Of a stretch of 64,000 bases of DNA, positions 1,867 through 63,331 are shown in pieces. Under the pieces are notes generated by a model, which was given only the letters and a program-made list of their open reading frames with translations, was not told where the DNA came from and did no database searches. The translations under genes and the position numbers were made by a program. Origin of the DNA: a virus (Duplodnaviria > Caudoviricetes); the IMG/VR virus record IMGVR_UViG_2513237100_000001, positions 1-64,000 of that record, one strand, 5' to 3'. Each line of letters begins with the position of its first letter. Position 1 is the first letter of the stretch.

Positions 1867-2279
1867 CGCAGTTGAGCCCCGCTCGTTCCGGGGATTCACC
1901 GGTCGGGCGGGGCTGGGGAATGCGAAATGGTGCCGGAATGGTGGCAGGAATACCAGTGGACTAGACCCGTGCTGCGAAACACGCCGCCCCTGAAAGACGG
2001 ATTCGAGTCGTCACCCTATTTCGGTATCCCCGCCACCTTTCCGAACCTTCACAGGATTTCCGCCACGGAACCACCGCATCACCAACGGTAAAGCCATGGC
2101 CAAGAATTCTGTGTGCAAGGCAACCCTGACCGGACTGAACTGCCAGCCAGGACCCCCTGCACCTCCCATCATGCCCCGTCAGCACCCGCGTATCTTCGGG
2201 GAGTTTCCATTAACAAACCGCCCGTCCTGGTTCACAATCTGTGTACCCAACACCGTTCCACCCACGGGGGATTACCCAC

Positions 2280-3122
2280 ATGCACAAGCAAGCCCTGCAC
2301 GACTTCCTCAAAGAACGACGAGCCCGCGTCACCCCAAAATCTGTTGGCCTCCCCGAACCCACCGGCCCAGGACGCCGCACCCCCGGCCTCTCCCAACAAA
2401 ACATCGACCACCTACTCCACTCCAGCGTCCACACCTACTACCGGCTCGAAACCGGCAAAACCCCCCGCGTAAAACCCGACTACCTCCGCGCCCTCGCCCA
2501 ACTCCTCGCACTCAACGAACACGAATGGGTCCTCCTCCACCGATACGCCCTCGAACAAGAACCCCCCGCACCCCTCCACCCCGACGCCGGCTACCTCATC
2601 CCCACCCCATGGCAACGGGCCGTAGACGGCATCACCCGCGACATGGCCTACGTCGGAGACGCAGCCTGGAACGTCGTCGCCTACAACGACCTATGGCGGA
2701 CCATGTTCCCGTCCGGGCAAGTCCCCGCGAACACCATGCGGTGGATGTGCCTGTCCGACGAAGCGCGCACCGTCCTCACCGACTGGGACACCCAATGGGC
2801 GCCCCGCGTCCTCCCCCAACTCCGCGGTGCGGTTGCCATGCGCCGCGACCCCACCCTCCTCCAGATCGAGCAGGACGTCCTCAACGACCCGATCGCCGGC
2901 CCCCTGTACGAAGCCCGCGGTGTCACCCTCCACCCCGACGGCGACGAACGACCCCTTCACCATGCGGCGCACGGGCCCGGTTGGGTCACCATGTGCTCCG
3001 CGACCCCGGAGTCCGCCCCCGGCGCCCGACTGATGATCCTGCTGTTCTCGAAGACGAAGCGCGGGACACCACCCGGCCCCCCTCTCCGGGCTGTTACCCC
3101 TGGTCACATAGGTAACGAATAA
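2280..3122 (+). CDS. MmyB/MltR-family transcription factor (XRE HTH plus PAS-like ligand-binding domain)
   Basis: LHDFLKERRARVTP..GLP..GRRTPGLSQ..YYRLETG N-terminus; AYVGDAAWNVVAYN, NTMRW, DWDTQWA C-terminal signature. Confidence 0.92.
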   Translation: MHKQALHDFLKERRARVTPKSVGLPEPTGPGRRTPGLSQQNIDHLLHSSVHTYYRLETGKTPRVKPDYLRALAQLLALNEHEWVLLHRYALEQEPPAPLHPDAGYLIPTPWQRAVDGITRDMAYVGDAAWNVVAYNDLWRTMFPSGQVPANTMRWMCLSDEARTVLTDWDTQWAPRVLPQLRGAVAMRRDPTLLQIEQDVLNDPIAGPLYEARGVTLHPDGDERPLHHAAHGPGWVTMCSATPESAPGARLMILLFSKTKRGTPPGPPLRAVTPGHIGNE

Positions 3123-3125
3123 CCC

Positions 3126-3165
3126 ACCAGGGGCAGCAATCAGGCCACCACGGGCTATTTTGAGC
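3126..3165 (+). promoter_or_regulatory. PKS promoter: ACCAGGGGCAGCA box followed 17 nt later by TATTTT (-10); inverted box copy at 3092-3104
   Basis: Same 13-mer and spacing as upstream of the portal and lysis genes. Confidence 0.65.
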
Positions 3166-3192
3166 AATCCGTGCCTAGCCCGTGGAGGTCCC

Positions 3193-4239
3193 GTGCCCGC
3201 CCCCGCCTACGTCACCACCCCGCAGGTCACCCTCCCCCCACACAAGATCACCACCAGCGAAATCCTCGACGACATCCGGCACCACCACCCCGACCACCCC
3301 CGGCTCCCCGTCATCCTCCGCGCCATCACCAACAGTGGCGTCACCACCCGCCACTACACCCGGCCCCTCCACTCCCCCACCGTCAACGGCACCGCGGACG
3401 TCCACGAACGCACCCAAGCCGCATTCGACGACGCCCTCGACATGGCCACCCAGGCCGCCGCCCAGGCCCTCACCCACGCCGGGCTCACCCCCGCCGACAT
3501 CGACGCGGTCGTCACATCCCACGCCACCGGCTGGTCCGTCCCCAACCTCGACGTGCACCTCATAGCCCGCCTCGGCCTGAATCCCACCACCCGCCGGCTC
3601 CCCATGACCACACTCGCTTGCGCCGGCGGTGTCCACTCCCTGATCCGCGCCCACGACCACGTCACCGCCCACCCCGACGCCAGGGTGCTGGTGGTGGCGA
3701 CGGAGGCACTGTCGACGTCGTACAACCATGCCGACACCAGCATCCCCAGCATGATCTACAAGGCGTTGTTCGCGGACTCGGCGGCCGCGACCATCGTCAC
3801 CGCGGAACCCCTCCAGCCTGGTCTCCGTATCACCGACACCCTGGAGTACTGGCTCCCTGACAGTCTCGACCGGTACGCGGGGCGCCTCGACACCACGGGC
3901 ATGCACTTCGACTCCACCCGCCAAGCCCCCGCCAGCGCAGCACAAACCATGCCCGCCCTCCGGGAGTGGCTCGGGCCCCGCATCGTCGACTGGGCGGTCA
4001 TCCACCCCGGCGGGCCCAGCATCATCCACGACGTCGCCACGGCTCTCGGCCTCGACGACGTAGACGCACACCACTCCTACGCGTCTCTCGCCGAGTGCGG
4101 CAACCTGGGTGGGGCGTCCGTTCTCGACGTCCTCGCCCGCACCCACACCACCCCGCCCCACGCTGACGCGGTGGGGGTCATGGCCGCGTTCGGGCCGGGC
4201 TTCACCCTGTCCGCGATCCGCGGCACCTGGCACGCCTGA
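3193..4239 (+). CDS. Type III polyketide synthase (PhlD/RppA/germicidin-synthase-like)
   Basis: Cys-His-Asn triad intact (LACAGG, IHPGG, CGNLGGAS); ALFAD; AFGPG; N-terminus PPHKITT...HPDHPRL resembles PhlD; GGAGG RBS. Confidence 0.95.
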   Translation: MPAPAYVTTPQVTLPPHKITTSEILDDIRHHHPDHPRLPVILRAITNSGVTTRHYTRPLHSPTVNGTADVHERTQAAFDDALDMATQAAAQALTHAGLTPADIDAVVTSHATGWSVPNLDVHLIARLGLNPTTRRLPMTTLACAGGVHSLIRAHDHVTAHPDARVLVVATEALSTSYNHADTSIPSMIYKALFADSAAATIVTAEPLQPGLRITDTLEYWLPDSLDRYAGRLDTTGMHFDSTRQAPASAAQTMPALREWLGPRIVDWAVIHPGGPSIIHDVATALGLDDVDAHHSYASLAECGNLGGASVLDVLARTHTTPPHADAVGVMAAFGPGFTLSAIRGTWHA

Positions 4240-4256
4240 GAAACGCGCACGACAAC

Positions 4257-4287
4257 GCCCCCGCCCGGCCGAAGCCGAACGGGGGTG
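4257..4287. terminator. Putative stem-loop between convergent genes
   Basis: CGCCCCCG...CGGGGGTG imperfect hairpin just after the PKS stop. Confidence 0.45.
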
Positions 4288-4396
4288 CAGGCTGCTATGG
4301 GGTGCTGTGCTGCCTTGTCGGGACTGCGGTATGCCGGGGCTCGGGGAGGGGGGACTGCCCTCGGCCGCGGGTCGTCCAGATGCCCGTGCGGGTCGG

Positions 4397-9268: not shown

Positions 9269-9619
9269 TCAACCCGCTTCACGCCAACCCTGATTCGCCC
9301 CCTCCGGCACAACCACGTCGTCCAGGTTCAGCAACCCCAACCGCAACGCGACCGCGACCGCCTGCGCCCGGTCCCCAACCCGCAGCTTCCGGAACGCGGA
9401 CTGCATCCGAGACGCCACCGCCTCCGCACCAACCCCCAGCGTGTGGGCGATGGCCCGGTTCGTGGCCCCGTTCGCGGCGAGGCGCAGCACGGCTATCTCG
9501 CGGGCGGTGATGTACGTGCGGGCGTCTTTTGGCCGGCGGGCCAGGGTGCGGGTGGGGTTGAGAGAGGCCGTGGGCCCGCCACCCGAAGGCGACGGGCCCA
9601 CGTGGGCAGGGGCGGTCAC
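9269..9619 (-). CDS. Stand-alone LuxR/GerE-family HTH regulator
   Basis: ITAREIAVLRLAANGATNRAIA...FRKLRVGDRAQAVAVALRLGLL. Confidence 0.9.
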   Translation of the reverse strand: MTAPAHVGPSPSGGGPTASLNPTRTLARRPKDARTYITAREIAVLRLAANGATNRAIAHTLGVGAEAVASRMQSAFRKLRVGDRAQAVAVALRLGLLNLDDVVVPEGANQGWREAG

Positions 9620-12134: not shown

Positions 12135-12173
12135 GGGGTGCCCCCTGGAGTGGTCCGGTGCGCTGTAGACACC

Positions 12174-12229
12174 ACCATACCCGCAAACGTATTGCGTGAG
12201 CAAGACGTTAGATGGTGTTTGGGTATGCG
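12174..12229 (-). promoter_or_regulatory. Conserved promoter/operator (TTGCTC-N18-TATGGT)
   Basis: Closely related to 17524-17579 and 30832-30861. Confidence 0.7.
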
Positions 12230-12275
12230 GGAGGCCCGGCCCCACTCAGGACCGGGCCCCACACTTCACACCACC

Positions 12276-17463: not shown

Positions 17464-17523
17464 GGTGTGCTCCTGGTGTGGGTACTCCGGGAGGGTGGTG
17501 GCCCTCTCGTTGTCGGCACAACC

Positions 17524-17579
17524 ACAGTACCCATAAACATCTGGCACAGGCAAGACGTTAGACGGTATTGGGGTATGCG
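17524..17579 (-). promoter_or_regulatory. Conserved promoter/operator (TTGCCT-N18-TACTGT)
   Basis: Shares GCAAGACGTTAGAyGGTrTTkGGGTATGCG with 12200-12229. Confidence 0.7.
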
Positions 17580-17639
17580 AAAGCCCCCCACCCGCGAACC
17601 AGAAGGCTCAAGGTGAGGGGCAGCCAGAAGGCGAAGGCG

Positions 17640-26354: not shown

Positions 26355-26764
26355 GGGTGCCCTCCATCCCGCACCGGGCCTCGGGTGAGGGCTTCGGTGT
26401 CGGCAGGATGCTGGGGCGGGTGAACGCGTGCCGATCTACCGGCCATGCGTCCCATCGCCACGAACCCGGCCTCGTCCAGGGCGGCACGCAGCCGGTGCAG
26501 GGCGTCCGGGGTCCAGGTGGGGCGTGCCGCGGCTTTTCCCGCCTGGTAGCCGACGGCCAACGCCGCCTCCCACACCGCCCGCACCACAACCGGGTCCGCA
26601 TCAGGGAAGAGCAACTCCGGGAGCTTGCCGGGGCGGCTGGTGGCTTTGAGCATGCCGTGGGCGATCAGGCCGGCGAGGTAGTCCCCGGAGGACTGGCACC
26701 GGTCGGCGAGCACCTGGTCGGTGTCGGCGGCCGCAGACGGCTGCGGAATGGGGGTGGTGGTCAT
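26351..26764 (-). CDS. Hypothetical protein
   Basis: Coupled at both ends. Confidence 0.7.
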   Translation of the reverse strand: MTTTPIPQPSAAADTDQVLADRCQSSGDYLAGLIAHGMLKATSRPGKLPELLFPDADPVVVRAVWEAALAVGYQAGKAAARPTWTPDALHRLRAALDEAGFVAMGRMAGRSARVHPPQHPADTEALTRGPVRDGGHP

Positions 26765-27783
26765 GCGGCAGGCTCCAGAACAGTCGGGATACGGCGAGAG
26801 CGTGAAGTGCGGGAAGAGTGGGCCGGTCCCGCGACGATGGCGGGGGCGGCGGCCGTCGAGGACACGGCCAGTACAACCGAGGTGTCGCCGGTGACCGTGA
26901 CAGCCAGCAGCAGTTGCTCGTACGCGGCACGAAGCCGGGCCCGGAACCCTCGGCGCGGCGGAACCGTGGCAGGAAGCACAGGCACGGGGCGGCCGGCCAG
27001 GCGGCGGGGGCCGCGCGGCATGTCCTCCATACCCGGCAGCACCAACTGGGGGCCCACCGTGCGGGTCGGTGGGGCGATACGGCGCTGCCGCACCCCGTCC
27101 ACCGTCGGGGCCGCCGCGTACGGCATCGGCCCGTCCGGGCGGATCCGCATCGACCGGGGCAGCAGCCCGTGCTCGACCGCGGCGGCGAGCAGTTGGTCGC
27201 GGGTTGCTCGTTCCCGGTCCAAGCCGAGCATGCCGACGAGCGCGGACCGGTGCCAGTTCGCGGTCCGTAGGTCCATGCTCGCCCGGTAGGCGACCGCCTC
27301 CGGGTCGGTGTTGCGGGCCAGGGCGGCGAGGACGGCCCGCTTCTGCGGTGTGCGGGCATCGTCCAAGCTCCGCACCGTGGGCGTCGCTTCGGTGGCCGCC
27401 GTGCCCGTGCCGACCGTCGCAGCATGCCGGCGGGCGATCAGTGCCCGGTGCCTGGCGAGAGCCAACTCCCCACCCATCACGCCTTCCGGCTCGACAAGGT
27501 GCTCGACACCAGCCTCGTCCAGCGTCGTGGTGTTCGCGTACGTACGGCAGGCGGCCAGGACAGGGCACCGCTTGCAGATCGCCAGGGCGGCACGCTCCCG
27601 GGCCCGGCGAACCCGCTGCGGCTCCGCACCGTCATCCGTGTACGGGCCCCACGCGTCGATCGGCACACCCGGGTCCGCGGCCGACACCCGCGGGTCGTCC
27701 GGGTCGCCGGCGCAGCCCCGGTACTTGTAGTGCCGGTCATCGACCAGGTGTTGCCGGGCGGTGATCGCGTCCATGGTGGTCAT
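26761..27783 (-). CDS. Divergent WhiB-like protein with long C-terminal region
   Basis: RGC...ICKRCPVLAAC...GVMGG. Confidence 0.75.
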   Translation of the reverse strand: MTTMDAITARQHLVDDRHYKYRGCAGDPDDPRVSAADPGVPIDAWGPYTDDGAEPQRVRRARERAALAICKRCPVLAACRTYANTTTLDEAGVEHLVEPEGVMGGELALARHRALIARRHAATVGTGTAATEATPTVRSLDDARTPQKRAVLAALARNTDPEAVAYRASMDLRTANWHRSALVGMLGLDRERATRDQLLAAAVEHGLLPRSMRIRPDGPMPYAAAPTVDGVRQRRIAPPTRTVGPQLVLPGMEDMPRGPRRLAGRPVPVLPATVPPRRGFRARLRAAYEQLLLAVTVTGDTSVVLAVSSTAAAPAIVAGPAHSSRTSRSRRIPTVLEPAA

Positions 27784-34995: not shown

Positions 34996-35432
34996 GACCG
35001 TCTCCCCTGCTCTGATCTTTGACTCCATAGAAGGAACATTACCAACAGTGATAGGCATCACACTGCCCCGCGCGGACTGGCGCGCGGGGCAGTGTGGACG
35101 TCTGTGTGAATCTTCGCTGTGCGCGATCCTAAGGATCAGGCCCGGATGCACGGAGTGCGGATCACCTTGTTCTCGCCCTTGTCGCGCCCGCAGATCCGGC
35201 AGGCACTCTCTATTGGGTGCTCAGGGCAGAAGGGGCGACCTCGCGAGTCCTGCGACCATCCTGCGACCAGGCGGCGTACCGGAGTTCGCCGGACGCAGTC
35301 GTCGACCTGGCAGCACGCCTGGGGCTTCGAGAGGAAGGGGCTCATGCTTCCAGCGTGGCACGGATGCGTTGTCGCGCTGCCCCCGCTCAAGGCATGCGCG
35401 TGTCCACCATTGCGGGCGCTCGTTGCCACGGT

Positions 35433-35678: not shown

Positions 35679-35837
35679 TCACGGGTACAGGAGCCGGGAC
35701 AGTGGCGTGGGGCGGGCCCCGGGTTCGTGCGGCCGGTCCGGCGGTTCGGGCTCGGCCGCTGGCGCCTCGGTGACGATCTGGTCGTGCGGGTCCAGGCTGG
35801 CGGGTTCCGTGGCCGGCTCGGCGTGGTTCGCGCTCAC
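35679..35837 (-). CDS. Small Pro-rich, possibly leaderless ORF behind a late-type box
   Basis: ACCAGGGGCAACA box at 35867-35879 and GACCGT -10 just before the GTG. Confidence 0.4.
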   Translation of the reverse strand: MSANHAEPATEPASLDPHDQIVTEAPAAEPEPPDRPHEPGARPTPLSRLLYP

Positions 35838-35995
35838 GACTCCACGGTCCCACTGTGCGGGCGGGATGTTGCCCCTGGTGGTCTGTCACGGCGCGGTAAA
35901 CGGGGAGGTGTTCCCCGGTTCTTCGCCAGGAGCGATCCTGCGGCGAGAGGGCGTGGAGTGCATTGGCGGGCGACACGCTGCATAACCCTTGGAAT

Positions 35996-36355: not shown

Positions 36356-36616
36356 ATGGCGCAGGTAACCGCCCGCGACGCCCTGACCTACTCGCTCAAG
36401 CGAGAGCAGGCCCAGTTCGCGGAGGAGGCCGAGCGGCTGGCCAAGCAGGCCGCGTACATCGCCGCGAACCCGGCCGCCACTGGTCGGACGATCTCCGGCG
36501 ACATCGCCCGCCTGCTTCAGGAGGCCACCTTCCTCCTGAAGCGCGCCGCCACCATCGAAGCCGGACTCGAAGCTGTCGAGCTCATGGGTGCCGAAGCCAT
36601 CACCACCGAGCAGTGA
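36356..36616 (+). CDS. Hypothetical helical protein (cassette)
   Basis: AAGGAG RBS; ends TTEQ*. Confidence 0.75.
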   Translation: MAQVTARDALTYSLKREQAQFAEEAERLAKQAAYIAANPAATGRTISGDIARLLQEATFLLKRAATIEAGLEAVELMGAEAITTEQ

Positions 36617-36627
36617 GGACGACGACC

Positions 36628-36798
36628 ATGGCGCTGTGCCGCGACTGCTCCCGCGTCATCCCGTGCCACTGCCACGTCGCACCAGCCGTACAGATCCGGC
36701 CCGGTGTGTACGAGGCGGGGACTCGACCGAGTGCACCACTGACCATCGAAGAACGGCGGCGCCTCGTCGGGGGCCCGTCACCCACCACCAAGCAGTAA
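36628..36798 (+). CDS. Small Cys-containing protein (cassette)
   Basis: Starts and stops inside junction repeats. Confidence 0.65.
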   Translation: MALCRDCSRVIPCHCHVAPAVQIRPGVYEAGTRPSAPLTIEERRRLVGGPSPTTKQ

Positions 36799-36809
36799 GG
36801 ACTACGACT

Positions 36810-37007
36810 ATGAGTAACACCGTCACCCGGATCACGAATCGGCTGCACGAGGAAGCGCTGATCGAAAACGAGGAGCGCGACTGGTACCGAACGGGCCGAA
36901 TCCCGTGCAGCGACTGCGGCACGATGGTCCGCACCAAGACCCTGGAAACCCTGCCGCCGCACGGCTGCACCGACCGCCAGCGTGCCCGACACGCCACCGA
37001 GCAGTGA
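36810..37007 (+). CDS. Small Zn-finger protein (cassette)
   Basis: CSDC..HGC; bounded by repeats. Confidence 0.7.
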   Translation: MSNTVTRITNRLHEEALIENEERDWYRTGRIPCSDCGTMVRTKTLETLPPHGCTDRQRARHATEQ

Positions 37008-37018
37008 GGACCACGACC

Positions 37019-37408
37019 ATGGAGGAAACCTTCCAGCACCACTGGGGACAGGTCTACGAATCCTGCAACCCCGACGAGAAGAAGCACCTGATCATCGAAT
37101 CCATCGACCGGGCCGCAGGAACCGCCAAGGTCAGCTTCCCCGGCGGACGCGGAGGCCGCGACCGAAACAGGCGACGGCGCACCATCAAGCTGTCCTCGCT
37201 CCATTCCACCGGAACAACCCGAACCGGAGCTCAGCGACGCAGCGGATATCGCCTCATGGCCGGTCCCCCGAAGAGCGGTGAGGACATGTGCGAGATGTGC
37301 TACCACTACTTCAACCGGCCTGACCTGGAATCCGGTTGCTGCCAGCCGTGTACACAGTGGCTGACGGAAACCTTCCCGCGCCCCTCCGTAAGGACCACCC
37401 ATGCGTAA
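37019..37408 (+). CDS. DUF6354-like protein (cassette)
   Basis: GQVYE..LHSTGTTRTGAQRRSGYRL. Confidence 0.65.
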   Translation: MEETFQHHWGQVYESCNPDEKKHLIIESIDRAAGTAKVSFPGGRGGRDRNRRRRTIKLSSLHSTGTTRTGAQRRSGYRLMAGPPKSGEDMCEMCYHYFNRPDLESGCCQPCTQWLTETFPRPSVRTTHA

Positions 37409-37703
37409 CGTCGTTCCGCAAGACATCGACGACATCAGCGAAGACGACGTGAAGCGGATCGTCGGCTGGATCGGACGGCACGCACTGCCTGCGACGCTGC
37501 CGCACACCATGCCGGAGTACCGCACAGGGCTCGCCCTGGACGCGGCAGTCAACTGGACTGCGGATCACCTGAGGGCCCGGTACCCGTTGTTGTCAGCTCA
37601 AGAGCACCGGAACGTCGTACGCAACGACTGGAACATGCTCGTCAAGGTCGCAAGTGTGTGGAGTGACGAGGACGACTACCCCGGATGGCAGACCATCCGC
37701 TAG
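37401..37703 (+). CDS. Hypothetical protein (cassette)
   Basis: AAGGA RBS; W..DDYPGW C-terminus. Confidence 0.7.
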   Translation: MRNVVPQDIDDISEDDVKRIVGWIGRHALPATLPHTMPEYRTGLALDAAVNWTADHLRARYPLLSAQEHRNVVRNDWNMLVKVASVWSDEDDYPGWQTIR

Positions 37704-37935
37704 TAGCGGACCGCGACCATGACGACGTGCCGGGTATACGGCACGGTCAAAGCGCCGCCTGACCGAAGCCCAACAGGCCATCAACGACGCCAGCGAGCAG
37801 TGAGGACCGCGACCATGAATGTCCGCAGGATCACCAGCGTGCCCATGAGCGGGCCTGCCACCTACGGCCCCGACGCGGGCAGTATCACGCGTTGGACGAT
37901 TTAGGGGCGGGTTGGGCGTGGCAGCTCCGCGAGCA

Positions 37936-38390: not shown

Positions 38391-38854
38391 GCTGCGTTGC
38401 CTTTCCCAGGGCGGCAAGGCACTGGGGGAACCGAATACTCGGGAACCGTGGCCGCCCACATGATGACCCCGACATGCGAGGTGAGGTACCAGAGCGCAAC
38501 AAACGCGCCCCGCGAATACTCGCCGCTGACGGCAGCAGCAAGATAGGCGACAGCCCACACCGTGGGGGGCAGGAGTGCCGCCACGTAACCGGCCCAGTCA
38601 CGACCGATACGAAGAAACGCGGAACTGACCGTGACCAGCCCCACCACAATCCACAACCACGCCCAGTGCCGCAGCGAACACATAGACGTGAGAAGTCGCA
38701 GACCATGCGCGTCCGGAGGAGCAACGAGGAAGCTGATCCCCCAGCACGTTTTGCCGGCGCCGATGATGAGAAGGAAGACGCCGCGGCGGCCCACACGCTC
38801 ACCCAGACGCCGCAGAGTGTGGCGTAGCGCTCGCAGAGGGGCCGCCGAACCCAT
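38387..38854 (-). CDS. 4-TM lysis-cassette membrane protein
   Basis: GRRG.FLL then four hydrophobic helices. Confidence 0.75.
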   Translation of the reverse strand: MGSAAPLRALRHTLRRLGERVGRRGVFLLIIGAGKTCWGISFLVAPPDAHGLRLLTSMCSLRHWAWLWIVVGLVTVSSAFLRIGRDWAGYVAALLPPTVWAVAYLAAAVSGEYSRGAFVALWYLTSHVGVIMWAATVPEYSVPPVPCRPGKGNAA

Positions 38855-39111
38855 CAGACGCCCTTGGCGAGGCTGGCCGAGTTGGTGACGTCCCGCCACC
38901 GGGCGACAAGCCCCTTCAGCAGGGATGTGGCTGCGGCGACACCGGCAACACCGGCGGCCTGCCACATGCCAATGTCGAACGGCTGGGTGAGAACGAGACC
39001 ACCGACGAACGCCTGGAGGCCGGTGGAGACCACCCGCTCGGCCAGGTCGCGGGCGTAGGTCTTGGCTCCCTTGATGACGGTCTGCGTCTGGGGCAGCAGG
39101 GGGTCGGTCAT
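38854..39111 (-). CDS. Holin (r1t-like)
   Basis: DLAERVVST..QAF; two TMs; directly after the endolysin. Confidence 0.85.
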   Translation of the reverse strand: MTDPLLPQTQTVIKGAKTYARDLAERVVSTGLQAFVGGLVLTQPFDIGMWQAAGVAGVAAATSLLKGLVARWRDVTNSASLAKGV

Positions 39112-39112
39112 G

Positions 39113-40081
39113 TCAGTGCTCCGTTTCCAGGCGTACGGTGACGCCCTTGATGGCGGTCTCGATGCGGGTGATCAGGGCGTCCACGTCCACCGTGGCGTCG
39201 CGGGCGGCCAAGGCTTCGGCGAGGGTGCGGACCGTCGCGGTCACCGCGGCGATCTCGGTCTGGGCCTGCCGGACCCGCACGTGAATGTCGCGGATGTACG
39301 AGTCGGGCGTCCAATGGGTGTTGCCCGGCGCGGCCGTCAACGGCGACTTGAGGATGCCGTCGGTGGTCCAGATCTTCTTGACGTCGTCGGCGGTCAGGGC
39401 CACAGCGACCTCCTTGGTGGGCGTAGTGGGCGTAGTGGGTGCGGGTGCGCCGCCGGGATTCCAGCTGGCGGGGTGCTTGAGCCGCTCGGCGACATCAGCC
39501 CGCAAGCCGGCCATGGCGAACCCGCGGGGGTCGATCTTGTCGCTCGACCACTCCAGGTGACCGATCACGGACTTCGCGGTCCAGCCGTGGGCCCGGCACA
39601 GGGCGGCCTGGACGCGGACGATCGCGTCGTACTGGGCGGCGGGCCAGGGGTCCTTGCCGTCACCGAGGTTCTCGCACTCCCACCCGTAGAACCGGGCGTT
39701 CCCGTCGACCCCGTTGCTGTTGCCCTTGGTGGGCGGCGTGGGTCGGGTGCTGTACGACTCGGCGATCACCTGGTCCAGGACCTTCGGGTCGCCGCCGCCG
39801 GCGTGGTTGGTTCGGCCCCAGCCGACGAGGTGCACCTGACCGTCCTTCGCGATCATGCCGTGGCACAGGGGGCCCGGTAGTCCGGAGTACCCGTCACGGA
39901 CCATGGCGACGGTGGATGCGGTGCCCTTGGTGACGGTGTGGTGGACGATGCTGCCGTTCAGCGGGCCCCAAGCCCCGTGACCGGCCCGGTTGCGGGTGCG
40001 CCAGTTGCCGACCTCGACAACGGTCACGCCCTCGTCGAGCAGCGCCTTGAGGACCGCGGCGGCGGACAGTGGTGTGGCCAT
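39113..40081 (-). CDS. Endolysin, N-acetylmuramoyl-L-alanine amidase (Amidase_2)
   Basis: IVHHT..NHAG..GWECEN..IGHLEW..KIDP. Confidence 0.93.
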   Translation of the reverse strand: MATPLSAAAVLKALLDEGVTVVEVGNWRTRNRAGHGAWGPLNGSIVHHTVTKGTASTVAMVRDGYSGLPGPLCHGMIAKDGQVHLVGWGRTNHAGGGDPKVLDQVIAESYSTRPTPPTKGNSNGVDGNARFYGWECENLGDGKDPWPAAQYDAIVRVQAALCRAHGWTAKSVIGHLEWSSDKIDPRGFAMAGLRADVAERLKHPASWNPGGAPAPTTPTTPTKEVAVALTADDVKKIWTTDGILKSPLTAAPGNTHWTPDSYIRDIHVRVRQAQTEIAAVTATVRTLAEALAARDATVDVDALITRIETAIKGVTVRLETEH

Positions 40082-40083
40082 GG

Positions 40084-40482
40084 TCAGCTTCCCTCCTTCG
40101 GGTTGGGCGTCACCCGCGGCACGTGGAGCTGGTCCCACGCCACCTCGTCCGGGATGCCACTGGTGTCACCGCTGCCCTTGGGGCGCAGCGTGTGCTGGAA
40201 CGCGGCGAACGCCCGCTTGTGACCGTTCGTCCAGTCCGGTCCGGGGCTCTGAGCGGTGCCCCAGTGCCCCTCCTGGAACAGGCGGTAGGCCATGGCCTGG
40301 ACGATCGGGCTGTTGCGGCCGCCGTGGAAGAAGCTGGCGCCCGGGTAGGGCTCGTACAGGGAGTGGTCCGGGGCCGGCGGGGTTTCCGGTGTTGCGGGTG
40401 CCGATGGGGTTTCCCCGGTGTCGGGGGCGTTGTGCTTGGTCGGCGGGCCGTCGTCCGGGTCGGGTTTGGTGGTGCGGGTCAT
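40084..40482 (-). CDS. Stand-alone peptidoglycan-binding protein
   Basis: PYPGASFF..AFAAFQ..SGIPD..WDQL. Confidence 0.8.
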   Translation of the reverse strand: MTRTTKPDPDDGPPTKHNAPDTGETPSAPATPETPPAPDHSLYEPYPGASFFHGGRNSPIVQAMAYRLFQEGHWGTAQSPGPDWTNGHKRAFAAFQHTLRPKGSGDTSGIPDEVAWDQLHVPRVTPNPKEGS

Positions 40483-41309
40483 CGGGTGCTCCAGGAGTCG
40501 ATGCGGGGCTGTATGACGTCGATGTCGTCGCGGAGGGTCAGGTAGGTGCGGAGGGTGAGGCGGCCGTCGCCGTGGTCGCCCCAGGCGCTTCCCCAGGACT
40601 GGCGGAAGCGGAGGACGGTGTGGTCGGGGTCGAGGGTGCCGTCGACCAGGGCGACGTCCTCAAGGGCGGTCAGGCAGACTTCGTGGCCGCCCTCAAGGGG
40701 GCTGTCCGCCCAGGCGGGGTCGGCGTCCACGAAGCCGTGCTGGTCGGGGTCGGAGAACGCCGCGTGCCACGGAAGCCCCATGAGCGCGGGCCCGGTCTGG
40801 AGGAGGGTGCAGAGTTCCTCGGCGGTGGTGGCGTGCCCGTACTGGTCGATCAGGCCGCGGTTCCGCATGGCCTTGGCGACGCCGAGACCGGACGAGCCGA
40901 CGTCATGTGTGGGCCAGGCCAGTTCGGACCACCGGTCGCAGGAGGTGGCATCCGCGTACAGGCCGATAGCGAAGTGCTCGGCTGCGACCGCGTCCGTCAG
41001 GTTCAGGGATGCGGCGTGCGCCTGCTCGGGGCTGAGGATGACCGACAGGAGTGCGGTGGCTGCGTTGCCGGTACAGGACGCCAGGGCGTCGACATCGTCG
41101 TCGAGCCCGTATGCCTGTGCTGTGCGAATGCCCTGGGCGAGGAGGTTCCTCTGGTCGAGGACGGGGATGCGGGGTTCCCACGCTGACACCCGGAGCGGTT
41201 GCCCGTCGTACGGGCGCCGGTAGGCAAGGCTCCGCGGGTCGAGGACCATGTGTCGGCCGAGACTGGGGTGGACCTCGTAGGTGTGGATCGTGAGATCGGT
41301 GGTGGGCAC
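40479..41309 (-). CDS. Papain-like (C1) cysteine peptidase
   Basis: LDQ..SCTGNA..GGHEV..RQSWGSAWGDHG. Confidence 0.8.
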   Translation of the reverse strand: MPTTDLTIHTYEVHPSLGRHMVLDPRSLAYRRPYDGQPLRVSAWEPRIPVLDQRNLLAQGIRTAQAYGLDDDVDALASCTGNAATALLSVILSPEQAHAASLNLTDAVAAEHFAIGLYADATSCDRWSELAWPTHDVGSSGLGVAKAMRNRGLIDQYGHATTAEELCTLLQTGPALMGLPWHAAFSDPDQHGFVDADPAWADSPLEGGHEVCLTALEDVALVDGTLDPDHTVLRFRQSWGSAWGDHGDGRLTLRTYLTLRDDIDVIQPRIDSWSTR

Positions 41310-41423
41310 TGCGCCCGTGCTCCTGCACTCCCCGCGCCCAGAGCAGATTGGTTGGCGTGCTGCACCGGCCGGGGCCGGGTGGCAGTCCCTCGGGGGTGGT
41401 GCCGGGCGGAGGGTCGCCCTATG

Positions 41424-41463
41424 GATCAGCGTACGGGTGTGCGACCCGGATGCTGCCCCTGGT
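41424..41463 (-). promoter_or_regulatory. Late-type promoter of the lysis cassette
   Basis: ACCAGGGGCAGCA-N13-CCCGTACGCTGATC, identical boxes at 63292-63331. Confidence 0.75.
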
Positions 41464-53229: not shown

Positions 53230-53712
53230 TCAGCCGCCGCCACCGGAAGCGGGCACGGTGGCGTTGAGGAGCGGGCGGTCGGTGATCGCGAACGCCACGT
53301 TGATCTTCGCGGCCTCGTTGTCGAGGGTGATCGCCGCACTGTTGGAGGACACCGTCACCGGGAAGACGTCCATGCCGGGCGACGCGGGGGTCATGCCCTT
53401 GCGGCAGACGATGACGAACCCGACGGTGCCCTTCGCGAGGTCCGACTCGACGTCGGCAAGCTTGTCGTCCTCGTAGAACGTGATGCTGGAGTCCGCCGCC
53501 GAGTCGTCGCCGGAGATCTTCGACACGAACGTCGACGCCATGTCCGGCGTCTCGATCATCTGGTTCTCCAGCGAGAACCCGTCGACCGCGGCGATCTGCC
53601 GGCTGTAGTCGGTGGCACCGGTCAGCTCGGCACTGGTCGGCATGTATCCCGGATCGGCGATCGTCTCCGCGAAGAGAATCTTCGAGACGCCCTTGCGCTG
53701 GAACCTGGCCAT
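53230..53712 (-). CDS. Major tail tube protein
   Basis: Position; PTSAEL..IETPD..VFPVTV. Confidence 0.85.
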   Translation of the reverse strand: MARFQRKGVSKILFAETIADPGYMPTSAELTGATDYSRQIAAVDGFSLENQMIETPDMASTFVSKISGDDSAADSSITFYEDDKLADVESDLAKGTVGFVIVCRKGMTPASPGMDVFPVTVSSNSAAITLDNEAAKINVAFAITDRPLLNATVPASGGGG

Positions 53713-53812: not shown

Positions 53813-54262
53813 TCAGGCTGGGGTCAGGTCAAACCTGAACCTCTGTACGTAACTGATGATCCCATCCGTGGGGTCATTCGTTGCCCCCGCTTCGATGTCG
53901 AGGGCTCGCCCAATGACGCTGACGCCGGGGATGACGAGGGGGTGCAGCCACAGTCCGGTGACGGGGTTGCGGCCGAGGAGGGCTTCGCGGGCCTTGTCGG
54001 CCATCCACTCGACCTGGTCCGGGTCGCCGACCGTGCCGGGCTTCGACGGGTCGGGGCCGGACACGGACGTCACCTGGTAGACGGGGGACATGTCGTCGTT
54101 GGTGTCGGCGAGCGGCGGCCCGTCAAGAGTGGTGTCGAGGGAGTACAGCAGGTAGTAGTGCTGGCCGCCGCCGGTGGGCTGTTTGCCTCGGCCGACGGGG
54201 CGCCCGCTGGCGGAGGCGAGGAGCGCGGCCAGGGCCATGCTGACGGGGCGCCGGAGGATCAC
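53813..54262 (-). CDS. Tail terminator-like protein
   Basis: Position; YQVTSV..WMADKAREAL. Confidence 0.75.
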   Translation of the reverse strand: MILRRPVSMALAALLASASGRPVGRGKQPTGGGQHYYLLYSLDTTLDGPPLADTNDDMSPVYQVTSVSGPDPSKPGTVGDPDQVEWMADKAREALLGRNPVTGLWLHPLVIPGVSVIGRALDIEAGATNDPTDGIISYVQRFRFDLTPA

Positions 54263-58648: not shown

Positions 58649-59701
58649 TCACGCCCCGAGGACGGTCGCGGAGATGTGGATGTCCGGGACGTACAGGACG
58701 GGCATGCCGATCGCGGCGCCGCGGGAGTAGATCTGCACCGGGTCGTCTTCGACCTTGGTGACGACGACGATGCCCGGGGCCTCTTCGCGGGTCAGGGCGG
58801 GGTTGGTGCCGGAGGTGAACTTCATGGACTCGCGGGTGACGCCGTACTGGGTCTGTCCCCACTCGGAGGCCGGAACTGCCGGGATCATGATCCACTTATT
58901 GTCGGGGAGGACCCGCTTGTACACGTCGTCGTCCCAGACCTGAACGTCGTACGTGACGATCGGCGGGAGCCCGTACCTCGACCTGACCGTGTCGACCTCG
59001 TTCGGGGCGAGCGTCGCCGTGGGCGTACCCCCGATCGTCGAGGACCCGTAGAACGCGGCCCGATACTCGGCGTTCGACGCCAGCAGGGCGCGGGCCCGAC
59101 GGGACGTGATGATCTCGCGCGGGGCGGGGGCCCCGTTGTCGACGAGGTAGTCCATCCACGCCCGCTCGTCGGACAGGGGGGTGGCGGCCGGGTCGTCCCA
59201 CAGGACGCCTGCGGTCGGCATGTTCTCCGCCGGAACGTTCCAGTCGACGTCCAGACCGAGACCAGGCAGGTTGACCGAACCGGTAGCCAGGAGCTGACCG
59301 GCAGCGAGTTCCTGGGACGTCTTGATGGACTCGACGTGCCGCTCCGTGTCGGAGTACAGCAGGTCGATGTACTCCTGCGTGTTCTTGCCGTGGCCGACGT
59401 CGAGGAGGATCTGGTCCATCTCGGAGACGGCGAGGGTCTGGCCCAGGGCGGGCAGCATGCCCTCGTTCACGACACGCTCGGCCTGGCGCTTCGCCATGGC
59501 CGTCGGCGCGTCGTATGCCCGGAACTTCGCGGCGTTGACGCGGCGCTTCGCGGATGTGGTGCGGAACCGGATGCCCTGGATCTGCTTCTCGGGCAGAACC
59601 TCGCGGGTCAGGCGGTAGTTCGCGGGGGTATCGATGGCGCGGGCGAACACCGTGAGGTCGGTGTCGTTCGTGTCGCGCAGGAGGAGCTCAAGAGCCTCCA
59701 T
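58649..59701 (-). CDS. Major capsid protein (lambda gpE-like family)
   Basis: 350 aa; AKFRAYDA..; G.TQYG; C-terminal GMPVL. Confidence 0.9.
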   Translation of the reverse strand: MEALELLLRDTNDTDLTVFARAIDTPANYRLTREVLPEKQIQGIRFRTTSAKRRVNAAKFRAYDAPTAMAKRQAERVVNEGMLPALGQTLAVSEMDQILLDVGHGKNTQEYIDLLYSDTERHVESIKTSQELAAGQLLATGSVNLPGLGLDVDWNVPAENMPTAGVLWDDPAATPLSDERAWMDYLVDNGAPAPREIITSRRARALLASNAEYRAAFYGSSTIGGTPTATLAPNEVDTVRSRYGLPPIVTYDVQVWDDDVYKRVLPDNKWIMIPAVPASEWGQTQYGVTRESMKFTSGTNPALTREEAPGIVVVTKVEDDPVQIYSRGAAIGMPVLYVPDIHISATVLGA

Positions 59702-61329: not shown

Positions 61330-61394
61330 GAGCGCAAGTCCTCCCAGACTTGTTCCAGGCCCCGCGCCTTGATCCAAGGAAAGCACAGCCCTGG

Positions 61395-63257
61395 TCATTC
61401 GTTGCCCCTGGTCGGCTGCTGCCCTTGGTCGGCGGGTACATCCGGCAGGTTCACCGCGGGTGCTTTGTCAACGCTCGGCGCCTTCAGGCCGAGGAAGTCA
61501 GCGACCTCCTGTGTGCTGTTGAGTGCGTCGGCGAGGAAGCGGGCCTGCTCGAACTGGCGGGACTGGATCTGTGCGATCTCCGTCTCGACGTCGTCAATGG
61601 GGAACCCGGCGTCGGTGAGCATTCGCACCCCGGTCTCCAGGGACAGGACTCCCTTCTCCACACCGCTTGCTACCTGCTCCAGGACGGCCGCCTTGTCGGT
61701 CGGGGTGTACGGGCCGCGGACAAGGAGAGCGTCTTGGGGCGTGATGCCCGCCCAGTCAGGGTGCTGGCCGGCCATGAAGAGGCGCTGCGCAAACTTGAGG
61801 ATGAGGCTTTCTTTGTGTTCGCGGGCCAGGCGCATGCTGCCGATGAGGGAGTCGAGGGGGCCGAGGCTGATCTGCATGGCGAAGCCGGAGGGGACCTCGG
61901 ACGGGCTGAGGGTGCCCAGGGATACGGCGGGAAGCCGGACGATGGTGGAGGCCCGGTCCTTGAGGTCGGCAACGTGGTTGCGGAGCTCGGCCAGGGCCCG
62001 GGACGTGTCGACGGCGCTGAGCTTCCCGTTCTCCCCCAGCTTGAAGACCATGCCGGGGCCAGCTGCGAGTTCCTGCCGCGGGTCGGTAACGCCGGATACG
62101 GCCAGCATCGGCAGGCCAGTCGTGGCGGATGCTCGGGCGGAGTCGGTGTCGGAGCCGGCGAGCTCATCGAACACCTGCAAGGCCTTCGCGAGGGACGACT
62201 GGCCCCAGTGCTCTTCGGCGGGCGGGACCGTGTTGGGGACGTGGATGACCGGGATGAAGTCGATGAGGAGGTCGAGGTGGTCGAGGACTTCACCGTCGGA
62301 CCGGGTGGCGTAGGTGGCGCTGGTGGCGGGAAGGGAGTCGACGTCGATGTTGCCCTTGAGGTCGCCGATGACCCAGGTGGCGTCGGTGAGGTAGCAGGTG
62401 AAGTAGGAGGGTTCGTCGTTCCACGCGTACTGGCGGGCGATGGCCCCGGAGGCGGGGTCGACCATGTCGCCAGGGCTCAAGGTGGGGCCCGCGGGGTCTG
62501 TGGCGTCCGGGTCGGACTCGGGGGTAGGGGGAAGGGCACGGACGGCCCGTGTGCCAGTCTCGTCGACCCCAGCAACGGTCAGGGGACGGATCCAGTCCAG
62601 CTCGTAGGTGATGCGACGCAGGCGGGCTTTCAGGCCGCGCTTCGGGTCCTCGGGGAGCTCCCACGCGAAGTGGACGCGCCGCGGGTACTCGCCGCCGTCG
62701 TCGTCCTCGCCGATGACGGGGAAGTAGAAGCCGGGGTCGGTGACGCGTAGGGTGGGGCGCTTCTTCGCCGGGTCCCACGCCATGCGGTACACGCCGTCTC
62801 CGAGGGCGACGGTCTTACGTTCGCACTGCTGAAGTCGCATGGGGAGCAGCTCGGCCTTCGCCCAGTCCCGCAGGAGGGCCTGGACGCGTTCCGCCGCAGC
62901 GATTGACGCCTCGGCCGCTTCTCCCGCGGTGGACTGCTCTGCCCCGGGGACCACGATCTTCTGGTCTCGGCCGAGGACGTTGGAGACGAGCGTGTCGATG
63001 AACATGCTCGGGTCGCCGAACTCGCGGCGGTCCCGGGCGCCCGCACCATCGACGACCTCTGCGATTTCTGAGGCCTGGTTGTGGTCGTAGGCGGACAGCA
63101 GCTTGTATGCGGCGAGACGCCGTTCGTCTTCGGCGGGCACCCACATGGCCTGCGCTTCGGGGAACGCCCGCCGGTTGGGCATGCCCTGGCTGTCGGAGTA
63201 GACCGGCTTGTAGTTCAGCCAGCTCCATGCGTGGATGGCGATCTGCCTGAGACCCAC
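61395..63257 (-). CDS. Portal protein
   Basis: 620 aa after the terminase; LGDGVY..WD; IPVIHVPN; SGFAM. Confidence 0.88.
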   Translation of the reverse strand: MGLRQIAIHAWSWLNYKPVYSDSQGMPNRRAFPEAQAMWVPAEDERRLAAYKLLSAYDHNQASEIAEVVDGAGARDRREFGDPSMFIDTLVSNVLGRDQKIVVPGAEQSTAGEAAEASIAAAERVQALLRDWAKAELLPMRLQQCERKTVALGDGVYRMAWDPAKKRPTLRVTDPGFYFPVIGEDDDGGEYPRRVHFAWELPEDPKRGLKARLRRITYELDWIRPLTVAGVDETGTRAVRALPPTPESDPDATDPAGPTLSPGDMVDPASGAIARQYAWNDEPSYFTCYLTDATWVIGDLKGNIDVDSLPATSATYATRSDGEVLDHLDLLIDFIPVIHVPNTVPPAEEHWGQSSLAKALQVFDELAGSDTDSARASATTGLPMLAVSGVTDPRQELAAGPGMVFKLGENGKLSAVDTSRALAELRNHVADLKDRASTIVRLPAVSLGTLSPSEVPSGFAMQISLGPLDSLIGSMRLAREHKESLILKFAQRLFMAGQHPDWAGITPQDALLVRGPYTPTDKAAVLEQVASGVEKGVLSLETGVRMLTDAGFPIDDVETEIAQIQSRQFEQARFLADALNSTQEVADFLGLKAPSVDKAPAVNLPDVPADQGQQPTRGNE

Positions 63258-63291
63258 CAGATACCCCTCTGCACCAGGCCCCGCGCCATGT

Positions 63292-63331
63292 GATCAGCGT
63301 ACGGGCGATGCGGTGAGGTGCTGCCCCTGGT
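63292..63331 (-). promoter_or_regulatory. Late-type promoter of the portal operon
   Basis: ACCAGGGGCAGCA-N13-CCCGTACGCTGATC. Confidence 0.75.

What the first reader, a model, noticed from the sequence alone, without database searches (positions are those of the whole stretch)
3092..3165. The PKS promoter carries the same box as the virion and lysis promoters
Seen: ACCAGGGGCAGCA at 3126-3138 (+), followed 17 nt later by TATTTT. The identical 13-mer, followed 17 nt later by TACGCT, lies upstream of the portal (63319-63331, -) and of the lysis cassette (41451-41463, -). Variants lie upstream of the scaffold gene (61400-61412) and of a small ORF (35867-35879). An inverted near-copy at 3092-3104 faces back into the regulator gene. 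Inference: the box is an activator site replacing the -35, so the PKS is a true member of the late regulon. The adjacent MmyB protein is a candidate late activator, which would give a polyketide feedback loop on virion production.
Basis: partly seen in the sequence, partly recalled or inferred. Interest (0 to 1): 0.88.

Follow-up and report, generated by a model that had tools for sequence, protein, structure and literature searches.

The report
Shared late-type promoter box drives phage PKS
A Streptomyces plasmid-phage uses one unusual G-rich promoter box in place of the normal -35 signal for its head, tail and lysis genes, and the same box sits before its polyketide synthase gene, so that enzyme is probably switched on together with virus production.

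Summary
ACCAGGGGCAGCA occurs exactly three times, before the PKS, the lysis cassette and the portal gene. Each copy lies 17 nt upstream of a TAnnnT hexamer.

The window is part of an 86-kb relative of Streptomyces plasmid-phage ZL12. In nine full genomes the terS, portal, scaffold and lysis genes (36 of 36 sites) carry gCnGGGG[GC]A[AG][CTG] followed by N17-18 and a -10-like hexamer. A fifth site lies before the major tail gene.

A matrix trained only on other genomes ranks the PKS site 8th in the 86-kb record (score 16.1). Nine sites reach 16 or more, against 0.22 expected. A box in the same position precedes the PKS in 12 of 17 elements examined, including ZL12 and pSLE1.

In nine cases the start codon lies exactly 6 nt after the hexamer, as expected for leaderless transcripts from real promoters.

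The MmyB idea fails. That gene is co-directional with the PKS, and it is missing from relatives that keep every box promoter. No sigma factor gene was found, and host chromosomes lack the motif.

My best candidate reader is a conserved WhiB-like/LuxR-HTH fusion (26761-27783), but this is inferred only. No expression data exist.

The parts
2280..3122 (+). MmyB-like regulator gene (alternative start 2241), co-directional with the PKS
   Evidence: Pfam MLTR_LBD 2.8e-12 and HTH_31 2.1e-08, both above their cut-offs. TAA stop at 3120-3122.
3092..3104 (-). Inverted near-copy of the box (ACCAGGGGTAACA, 2 mismatches), inside the 3' end of the MmyB gene
   Evidence: No -10-like hexamer follows it. The hairpin it could form with the box is no more stable than shuffles (z -0.87).
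3126..3138 (+). Box ACCAGGGGCAGCA of the PKS promoter
   Evidence: Matrix score 16.1, 8th in the 86-kb record, with a matrix trained without this genome.
3156..3161 (+). -10 hexamer TATTTT, 17 nt after the box. Predicted transcript start near 3168.
3193..4239 (+). Type III polyketide synthase gene (GTG start, GGAGG at 3184-3188)
   Evidence: Pfam Chal_sti_synt_N 3.1e-20 and Chal_sti_synt_C 2.5e-10. Start and ribosome-binding site.
35867..35879 (-). Box ACCAGGGGCAACA, N17, GACCGT (35844-35849), 6 nt, then the GTG of a 52-aa ORF (35679-35837). Predicted leaderless.
   Evidence: The ORF and a box promoter recur in G002.
35375..35388 (-). Box GAGCGGGGGCAGCG, N17, CACGCT, 6 nt, then the ATG of an unannotated 69-aa Cys-rich ORF (35136-35345)
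   Evidence: Score 14.9. Context, ORF.
41451..41463 (-). Box of the lysis promoter. -10 TACGCT at 41428-41433. Drives peptidase, endolysin and holin (38854-41309).
   Evidence: Score 21.6. Conserved in G001-G005 and G007 and in G006 and G008. Gene identities.
53879..53891 (-). Box AGCGGGGGCAACG before the major tail protein gene (53230-53712). -10 GATCAT at 53856-53861. New site.
   Evidence: Score 23.5. An equivalent site precedes the g77 homologue in 7 of 8 relatives. Major tail protein phrog_2491, 2e-30.
61400..61429 (-). Two tandem boxes 17 nt apart (61417-61429 and 61400-61412) before the scaffold gene (60580-61329). -10-like TTTCCT at 61377-61382.
   Evidence: Score 24.1. Scaffold phrog_2303, 2.3e-19.
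63319..63331 (-). Box of the portal promoter. -10 TACGCT at 63296-63301. Portal gene 61395-63257.
   Evidence: Score 22.5. 62 of 75 portal upstream regions from relatives score 14 or more. Portal phrog_64, 8.6e-13.
63277..63287 (-). GGCGCGGGGCC, 8 nt after the portal -10. A second copy lies at 61358-61368 after the scaffold -10.
   Evidence: Exact in 74 of 75 portal upstream regions. At least three same-strand copies in each of 10 relatives, with extra copies in 5 of them.
26761..27783 (-). Candidate box reader: WhiB-like domain fused to a LuxR/GerE-type helix-turn-helix
   Evidence: PHROG 472 WhiB, 2.5e-08. Pfam Whib 6e-4, below its cut-off. Four invariant Cys and a near-invariant helix in 9 genomes. 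HTH modelled at pLDDT above 90. Top fold matches are GerE, VraR and LiaR, at E 0.07-0.3 only.
9269..9619 (-). Small LuxR/GerE-type protein, an alternative candidate reader
   Evidence: Pfam GerE 3.3e-11. tblastn relatives in 5 of 8 genomes. GerE-domain ORFs above the cut-off in 5 of 5 genomes checked.

Best explanation
The box is the upstream recognition element of a promoter class specific to ZL12-like Streptomyces plasmid-phages. The class has the form gCnGGGG[GC]A[AG][CTG], then N17-18, then nAnnnT, with the transcript starting about 7 nt later. The box occupies the -35 position and bears no likeness to TTGACA.

Shown by sequence comparison:
- This class drives terS, portal, scaffold, major tail and lysis genes in every family member examined.
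- It also drives a few accessory genes, among them the type III PKS.

Inferred:
- The -10 hexamer is read by host RNA polymerase with its primary sigma factor.
- The box is read by a factor encoded on the element, so all box promoters, the PKS included, fire together in the lytic programme.
- The most likely reader is the conserved WhiB-like/LuxR-HTH fusion at 26761-27783. Its WhiB part would dock on sigma region 4 and its HTH would read the box. My odds for this specific protein are about 0.3.
- MmyB is the cassette's own regulator, not the late activator.
For: - Exact 13-mer three times, with identical 17-nt spacing to a TAnnnT hexamer.
- 36 of 36 terS, portal, scaffold and lysis sites in 9 genomes carry the box, with N17 in 31 and N18 in 5.
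- In the leave-one-genome-out matrix scan, 9 hits reach 16 or more in G000, against a mean of 0.22 (maximum 2) in 200 shuffles.
- 8 of the top 10 G000 hits precede a co-oriented gene or ORF.
- Eight box sites in the family, plus one in the window, have the start codon exactly 6 nt after the hexamer, as expected for leaderless transcripts.
- Of 17 distinct PKS-bearing elements: 12 have a box promoter scoring at least 14.6, including ZL12 and pSLE1; 2 have a weaker but recognisable box; 2 have none evident; 1 is cut off.
- No sigma region 2 was found on 5 genomes, and a second search of 5 genomes found only region-4-like pieces (7 distinct genomes in all).
- The strict motif GGGGSAAC-N18-TAnnnT gives 8 hits (control 0) in 0.80 Mb of plasmid-phage DNA. 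It gives 10 hits (control 32) in 21 Streptomyces genomes.
- The WhiB/HTH fusion is present in 8 of 8 relatives, with a near-invariant putative recognition helix.
- A preprint (10.1101/2025.06.05.653497, passages read) shows that Wbl proteins, including three phage ones, bind sigma-A region 4.
- The element also has canonical TTGCnn-N18-TAnnGT promoters with a palindrome, so the box class is a distinct one.
Against: - No transcript data exist: no RNA run holds the sequence.
- Timing is inferred from gene function only.
- Box promoters also precede a Tad3 anti-defence homologue and a dCTP deaminase in relatives. Such genes are often early.
- Scaffold hexamers (TTTCCT, TGTCCT, TCCACT) lack the A at position 2 that a primary sigma needs.
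- Portal and lysis sites read GGAAC-N16-CGTA, which looks like an ECF-sigma promoter.
- PKS sites score lower than virion sites (15-19 against 18-26). In G004 and G005 no box is evident.
- The WhiB fusion is below Pfam's own cut-off (20.7 against 23.6 bits). Its fold matches have no significant E-value.
- GerE-type proteins are also found in all 5 genomes checked.
- No binding was tested.
Confidence: 0.6

Rival explanations
1. A host ECF-type sigma factor reads the promoters directly, with -35 GGAAC/GCAAC and -10 CGTA. The box would then be an alternative-sigma -35 element, not an activator site.
For: Many sites read GGGGGAAC or GGGGCAAC. Portal and lysis sites have CGTA exactly 16 nt after AAC. 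This matches the ECF pattern AAC-N16-CGT, which I recall rather than tested.
Against: - terS, tail, scaffold and PKS sites lack CGT at that place.
- What all sites share is nAnnnT with T at position 6, including the nine leaderless cases.
- No sigma gene was found on the elements.
- The composite motif is not enriched in 21 Streptomyces genomes: 10 hits against 32 for the control.
- In 5 host genomes, 3 of 4 strict hits lie on the plasmid-phage contigs. That pattern finds only about a tenth of the known sites, so a small host regulon could be missed.
Confidence: 0.15
2. One reading: the adjacent MmyB-like protein binds the box and activates all late promoters, giving polyketide feedback on virion production.
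For: - The gene lies next to the PKS box.
- An inverted near-copy lies 21 nt upstream.
- In the ZL12 clade the box is part of a palindrome, CCCCTGATCAGGGG.
- CCCCTG lies within 70 nt upstream in 5 of 13 PKS promoters, against 5 of 49 other box promoters.
Against: - MmyB is absent from G006 and G007 and only sub-threshold in G008, yet these keep box promoters at terS, portal, scaffold, tail and lysis.
- The virion boxes have no inverted partner.
- The position of the inverted copy varies (-19, -42, -52).
- The gene is co-directional, not divergent.
Confidence: 0.04
3. The box is not a promoter element. It is a site for another DNA transaction, such as a repressor operator, a partition or packaging site, or a repeat spread by recombination.
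For: - The invariant GGCGCGGGGCC next to three of the boxes shows that other conserved sites lie in these regions.
- In several relatives the spacer is the inverted complement of that element, which looks like an operator.
Against: - Strict spacing to a -10-like hexamer.
- Consistent orientation toward the next gene.
- Nine start codons lie exactly 6 nt after the hexamer.
- No other -35 or extended -10 is present to make a promoter without the box.
Confidence: 0.06

Closest known systems
Phage T4 middle promoters (MotA box with AsiA remodelling of sigma-70 region 4; 'sigma appropriation'). Recalled from general knowledge; a review on sigma-remodelling factors, PMC7403470, was seen only in a search listing.
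   Same: A non-canonical box at a fixed distance replaces the -35. A primary-sigma-type -10 is kept. A phage factor is needed to read the box.
   Different: - No MotA or AsiA relatives were looked for or seen.
- The box here is G-rich and the host is an actinobacterium.
- The proposed reader is a single WhiB/HTH fusion.
- Nothing is shown experimentally.
WhiB7-type activation: a Wbl protein docked on sigma-A region 4, with its own DNA-binding tail next to the -35
   Same: The candidate reader has the four-Cys Wbl core plus an added DNA-binding module. Wbl proteins of phages bind sigma-A region 4 (10.1101/2025.06.05.653497, passages read).
   Different: - The module is a LuxR/GerE-type HTH, not an AT-hook.
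- The target is G-rich and overlaps the -35 position.
- The Trp of the GVWGG turn is kept in only 2 of 9 orthologues.
- Binding is untested.
ECF-sigma promoters (GGAAC-N16/17-CGT)
   Same: AAC at the -35 position. CGTA 16 nt later at portal and lysis sites.
   Different: CGT is missing at the other members. No sigma gene is on the element. No matching host regulon was found.
Type III PKS of plasmid-phages pZL12 (pZL12-100) and pSLE1
   Same: The same gene with its upstream HTH regulator. Already noted in print: PMC4487206 and PMC10023795 (passages read), the latter finding T3PKS only in prophages on plasmids.
   Different: The passages I read do not mention how the PKS gene is transcribed. The shared box promoter is the new part.

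Membership tests
Actinobacterial primary-sigma-type promoter (-10 only) | -10 hexamer with A at position 2 and T at position 6 | tested here: inconclusive
   T at position 6 in all 36 aligned sites once N18 is allowed. A at position 2 in most, but the scaffold sites read TTTCCT, TGTCCT or TCCACT. The window's PKS, lysis, portal, tail and small-ORF sites all fit.
Actinobacterial primary-sigma-type promoter (-10 only) | Transcript start 6-8 nt after the hexamer | not testable with these tools
   Indirect only: nine start codons lie exactly 6 nt after the hexamer. No RNA run is available.
Canonical -35/-10 promoter | TTGACA-like hexamer 17 nt upstream of the -10 | tested here: not met
   That position holds GCAGCA, GCAACA or GGAACN.
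ECF-sigma-dependent promoter | GGAAC-like -35 and CGT-containing -10 at 16-17 nt in all members | tested here: not met
   Met at portal and lysis sites. Not met at terS, tail, scaffold, PKS or the leaderless sites.
ECF-sigma-dependent promoter | A cognate sigma gene (regions 2 and 4) | tested here: not met
   PF04542: nothing above the cut-off in 5 genomes. TIGR02937: only region-4 pieces in 5 genomes. Host sigma factors were not examined.
MmyB-controlled promoter set | The regulator is present wherever the site is used | tested here: not met
   No MmyB in G006 or G007, sub-threshold only in G008. Box promoters are present there.
WhiB-like (Wbl) proteins (for 26761-27783) | Four Cys in the pattern C-Xn-C-X2-C-X5-C | tested here: met
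   C24, C70, C73 and C79 are invariant in 9 orthologues.
WhiB-like (Wbl) proteins (for 26761-27783) | Family profile score above the curated threshold | tested here: inconclusive
   Pfam Whib 20.7 bits, below the 23.6 cut-off. PHROG 472 WhiB 2.5e-08.
WhiB-like (Wbl) proteins (for 26761-27783) | [quoted passage not shown] | not testable with these tools
Type III polyketide synthase (for 3193-4239) | Chalcone/stilbene synthase N and C domains | tested here: met
   Pfam 73.1 and 41 bits, both above the cut-off of 27. The translation shows LACAGG, HPGG and GNLGG, which I take from memory to be the Cys-His-Asn motifs.

The most novel reading that the evidence does not exclude
A WhiB-like protein fused to a LuxR-type HTH docks on region 4 of the host's primary sigma factor and redirects RNA polymerase to a G-rich box. 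This would be a WhiB-based form of sigma appropriation. It would run the whole late programme of a widespread family of Streptomyces plasmid-phages. It would also wire a type III PKS, with its MmyB-like lipid-sensing regulator, into that programme, so that a polyketide is made by the virus during lytic growth.
Probability: 0.2. Interest if true: 0.8.

Novelty: new variant of a known kind. Interest (0 to 1): 0.6.

Why it matters
WhiB-like proteins are reported as the most abundant regulators in actinobacteriophages (PMC10023795, passages read). Most lack a known DNA target. This family offers a defined, conserved target motif and a WhiB protein that carries its own DNA-binding domain, so the question becomes testable at the bench.

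A biosynthetic enzyme under the same promoter class as head, tail and lysis genes would mean the polyketide serves the virus during lytic growth rather than the lysogen. That is unusual for phage-borne biosynthetic genes.

The PKS gene is common. tblastn found it on 73 plasmid records at E of 1e-40 or better, 70 from Streptomyces and 3 from Kitasatospora. Of the 25 records listed, 24 are 85-102 kb.

The motif also gives a practical way to annotate late promoters and leaderless small genes in these elements.

Tried and rejected
- **RNA families and tRNAs.** None found in the window.
- **Hairpin between the inverted near-copy and the box.** -21.9 kcal/mol, z -0.87, and 37 of 200 shuffles fold as well. 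Not a notable structure.
- **Inverted partner as a general feature.** Its position is inconsistent and it occurs in only 5 of 13 PKS promoters. Left open.
- **Expression data.** No RNA holder is listed for 2200-4300.
- **Sigma factor on the element.** Not found.
- **Searching for the WhiB fusion outside the family, to test co-occurrence with the box.** All 39 IMG/VR hits lie on contigs of 4.8-96 kb, about two thirds of them 83-96 kb. I take them to be the same family or pieces of it, but I did not check their gene content. Two distant elements with a different upstream box still have a weak relative. The test therefore does not discriminate.
- **Small LuxR protein excluded by absence.** This failed. 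GerE-domain ORFs exist in 5 of 5 genomes checked.
- **The strict host-genome pattern.** It is insensitive: 3 hits on 5 resident plasmid-phages, and 8 hits in 9 plasmid-phage genomes that hold at least 45 sites.
- **Literature.** Searches found no description of this motif. The pZL12 paper (PMC2897331) is not held and may bear on this. Supplementary files were not consulted.
- **Dropped rows.** Of 81 portal loci, 6 were left out of the upstream count because the match did not reach the N-terminus or too little upstream DNA was held. L125 has only 65 nt upstream. In one search the pattern picked the ribosome-binding region in L133.

Full report
**What the window is.** The window is bases 1-64000 of an 86,042-bp viral record rated 95% complete. 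Its structural genes are about 75% identical in DNA to Streptomyces plasmid-phage ZL12. My own gene calls give 120 genes.
- portal 61395-63257;
- head scaffolding protein 60580-61329;
- major head protein 58649-59701;
- major tail protein 53230-53712;
- a lysis block of peptidase, endolysin and holin at 38854-41309;
- a type III PKS at 3193-4239, preceded by an MmyB-like regulator at 2241/2280-3122.

**The observation.** ACCAGGGGCAGCA occurs exactly at 3126-3138 (+), 41451-41463 (-) and 63319-63331 (-). With up to two mismatches there are 13 matches against 2.78 expected, and none of 100 shuffles reached 13. Each exact copy is followed by 17 nt and then TATTTT, TACGCT or TACGCT. The variants at 61400-61412 and 35867-35879 are real, as is the inverted near-copy at 3092-3104.

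Two details were misread. The MmyB gene is on the same strand as the PKS, and the box starts 4 nt after its stop codon. The inverted copy lies inside the end of that gene, and no -10-like hexamer follows it.

**The box is a family-wide promoter element.** Searching IMG/VR with the portal protein gave 80 related loci.
- Of 75 with enough upstream DNA, 74 carry an exact GGCGCGGGGCC just after a CCCGTAcCCT-like -10. Sixty-two score 14 or more with the box matrix.
- I fetched eight full relatives of 85-92 kb.
- In all nine genomes the terS, portal, scaffold and lysis genes are preceded by gCnGGGG[GC]A[AG][CTG]. Three G and one A are invariant. The spacing to a -10-like hexamer is N17 in 31 of 36 sites and N18 in 5.

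The window's 13-mer is the local form of this element.

**Matrix scan without circularity.** For each genome I trained box and -10 matrices on the other eight and scanned both strands. The top hits in the window's record were:

| Rank | Site | Score |
|---|---|---|
| 1 | scaffold | 24.1 |
| 2 | new site at 53879-53892, before the major tail gene | 23.5 |
| 3 | portal | 22.5 |
| 4 | lysis | 21.6 |
| 5 | 83836, outside the window | 20.2 |
| 6 | terS 66036, outside the window | 18.2 |
| 7 | the 52-aa ORF at 35867 | 17.9 |
| 8 | PKS | 16.1 |
| 9 | antisense site in the tape-measure gene, probably chance | 16.0 |
| 10 | 35375 | 14.9 |

The next hit scores 9.0. Nine hits reach 16 or more, against a mean of 0.22 and a maximum of 2 in 200 dinucleotide-preserving shuffles. 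The tail site recurs before the tail gene in 7 of 8 relatives.

**Independent sign that these are promoters.** Eight of the 64 box sites that scored 13 or more and had a co-oriented gene within 400 nt have the start codon exactly 6 nt after the hexamer. One is the window's 52-aa ORF. A ninth is an unannotated 69-aa ORF at 35136-35345. That is the geometry of leaderless actinobacterial mRNAs, a rule I take from general knowledge. These hexamers (GACCGT, CAGCAT, CACGCT, TAGCCT) share only A at position 2 and T at position 6.

**The PKS promoter in relatives.** MmyB and the PKS travel together: both are in G001-G005 and neither is in G006-G008. I examined 17 distinct PKS-bearing elements.
- Twelve have a box, N17-18 and a TAnnTT-type hexamer about 30-45 nt before the start, scoring 14.6-19.3. 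Among them are ZL12 (GATCAGGGGCAATA-N17-TATGTT) and pSLE1.
- Two have a weaker but recognisable box (L130 at 9.7, L123 at 4.4).
- Two show none (G004, G005).
- One is cut off (L125).

The PKS is therefore wired to this promoter class across most of the family. PKS hexamers end in TT, where the late ones end in CT.

**Who reads the box.**

MmyB cannot be the general reader. Its ligand-binding domain is absent from G006 and G007, both rated 100% complete, and sub-threshold in G008. Those genomes keep all the box promoters.

No sigma factor is recognisable on the elements. Sigma70_r2 finds nothing above the cut-off in 5 genomes. The ECF/sigma-70 model matches only region-4-like helices.

The motif is not a host regulon.
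- GGGGSAAC-N18-TAnnnT gives 10 hits against 32 for the reversed control in 21 Streptomyces genomes.
- It gives 8 hits against 0 in 0.80 Mb of plasmid-phage DNA.
- In five host genomes of relatives, 3 of 4 strict hits lie on the plasmid-phage contig.
- The strict pattern is insensitive, so a small host regulon could be missed.

Among proteins conserved in all eight relatives, one stands out: 26761-27783.
- It has four invariant Cys in the WhiB pattern and a GV(M/W/L)GG turn.
- Its second domain is modelled with pLDDT above 90. The best fold matches for that domain are GerE, VraR and LiaR DNA-binding domains (TM about 0.75 to the target), but E is only 0.07-0.3.
- Its putative recognition helix, GMDLRTANWHRS, is nearly invariant. 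That fits a conserved box core.

I therefore propose that this fusion docks on sigma region 4 and reads the box. This is inference only. Small GerE-type proteins are also present in all five genomes checked and remain candidates.

**What argues against my reading.**
- There are no transcript data.
- The scaffold hexamers lack the A at position 2.
- Portal and lysis sites look ECF-like (GGAAC-N16-CGTA).
- Box promoters in relatives precede a Tad3 anti-Thoeris homologue (3e-32) and a dCTP deaminase. These need not be late genes.

'Lytic-programme regulon' is safer than 'late regulon'.

**Comparison with what is known.** The logic resembles T4 middle promoters (a MotA box replacing the -35) and WhiB7-type activation, both recalled from general knowledge. 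Membership in either system is not claimed.

The PKS on pZL12 and pSLE1 is already in print (PMC4487206, passages read). So is the remark that T3PKS are found only in plasmid-borne prophages (PMC10023795, passages read). Four full-text searches found no description of the box. The pZL12 paper itself is not held.

**Verdict.** The cis-element finding is confirmed and much broadened. The MmyB mechanism is rejected as a general one.

Noticed in passing
window 63277-63287 (-), 61358-61368 (-); also 65994-66004 (-) of the full record: An invariant GGCGCGGGGCC lies 7-8 nt after the -10 of the terS, portal and scaffold promoters. It is absent from the tail, lysis and PKS promoters. Each of 10 relatives has at least three same-strand copies, and it is exact in 74 of 75 portal upstream regions. 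In several relatives the promoter spacer is its inverted complement. It may be an operator or the conserved 5' end of the head transcripts.
   Followed up: partly
window 12171-12237 and 17521-17587 (minus strand): Two 67-nt repeats hold canonical promoters (TTGCTC/TTGCCT, N18, TATGGT/TACTGT). One has a perfect palindrome, CGCAATACGTTTGCG, in the spacer. These are probably repressor-controlled early promoters, a class distinct from the box promoters.
   Followed up: no
window about 41310-41425 (-): The lysis promoter is followed by a leader of about 110-130 nt that is conserved across the family: GGCGACCCTCCGCC, then CCCCGAGGGACTGCC, then GGCGCGGGGAGTGCAGGAGC. It may be a structured regulatory leader.
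   Followed up: no
window 35136-35345 (-): An unannotated 69-aa Cys-rich ORF whose ATG lies exactly 6 nt after the hexamer of a box promoter at 35375-35388.
   Followed up: partly
L092:17100-17597 (relative G003); L109:16003-16584 (relative G006): In G003 the gene just after the PKS is a Tad3 (type I Thoeris inhibitor) homologue, Pfam 3.1e-32. It has its own box promoter and a leaderless start. In G006 a dCTP deaminase-like gene has one too.
   Followed up: partly
L069, L081, L213, L214, L217 (portal upstream regions): A more distant clade, with portal about 56% identical, keeps the -10 and GGCGCGGGGCC. It has ACGCCCGC at the place of the G-rich box, so the upstream module appears to have been swapped.
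   Followed up: partly
L129 (ZL12 record 79644-80987): The annotated start of pZL12.100 (79644) lies upstream of its own box promoter (79863-79876) and overlaps pZL12.99. The homology starts at 79941, so the true start is probably near 79932.
   Followed up: partly
window 26761-26775 (-), end of the WhiB/HTH gene: All nine orthologues end in LE(P/A)AA. The stop overlaps the start of the next gene and the codons hold a GGAG. The conservation may therefore reflect translational coupling rather than a degradation tag.
   Followed up: no
window 36600-37817 (+): Four copies of a 31-nt gene junction (TCACCACCGAGCAGTGAGGACGACGACCATG and variants) mark a run of small paralogous genes.
   Followed up: no
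full record 83836-83849 (+), outside the window: A strong box site (score 20.2, hexamer GACCCT) lies 20 nt inside my call of the DNA methylase gene. Similar sites with the same hexamer and leader occur in G001, G003 and ZL12. The methylase start may be miscalled.
   Followed up: partly
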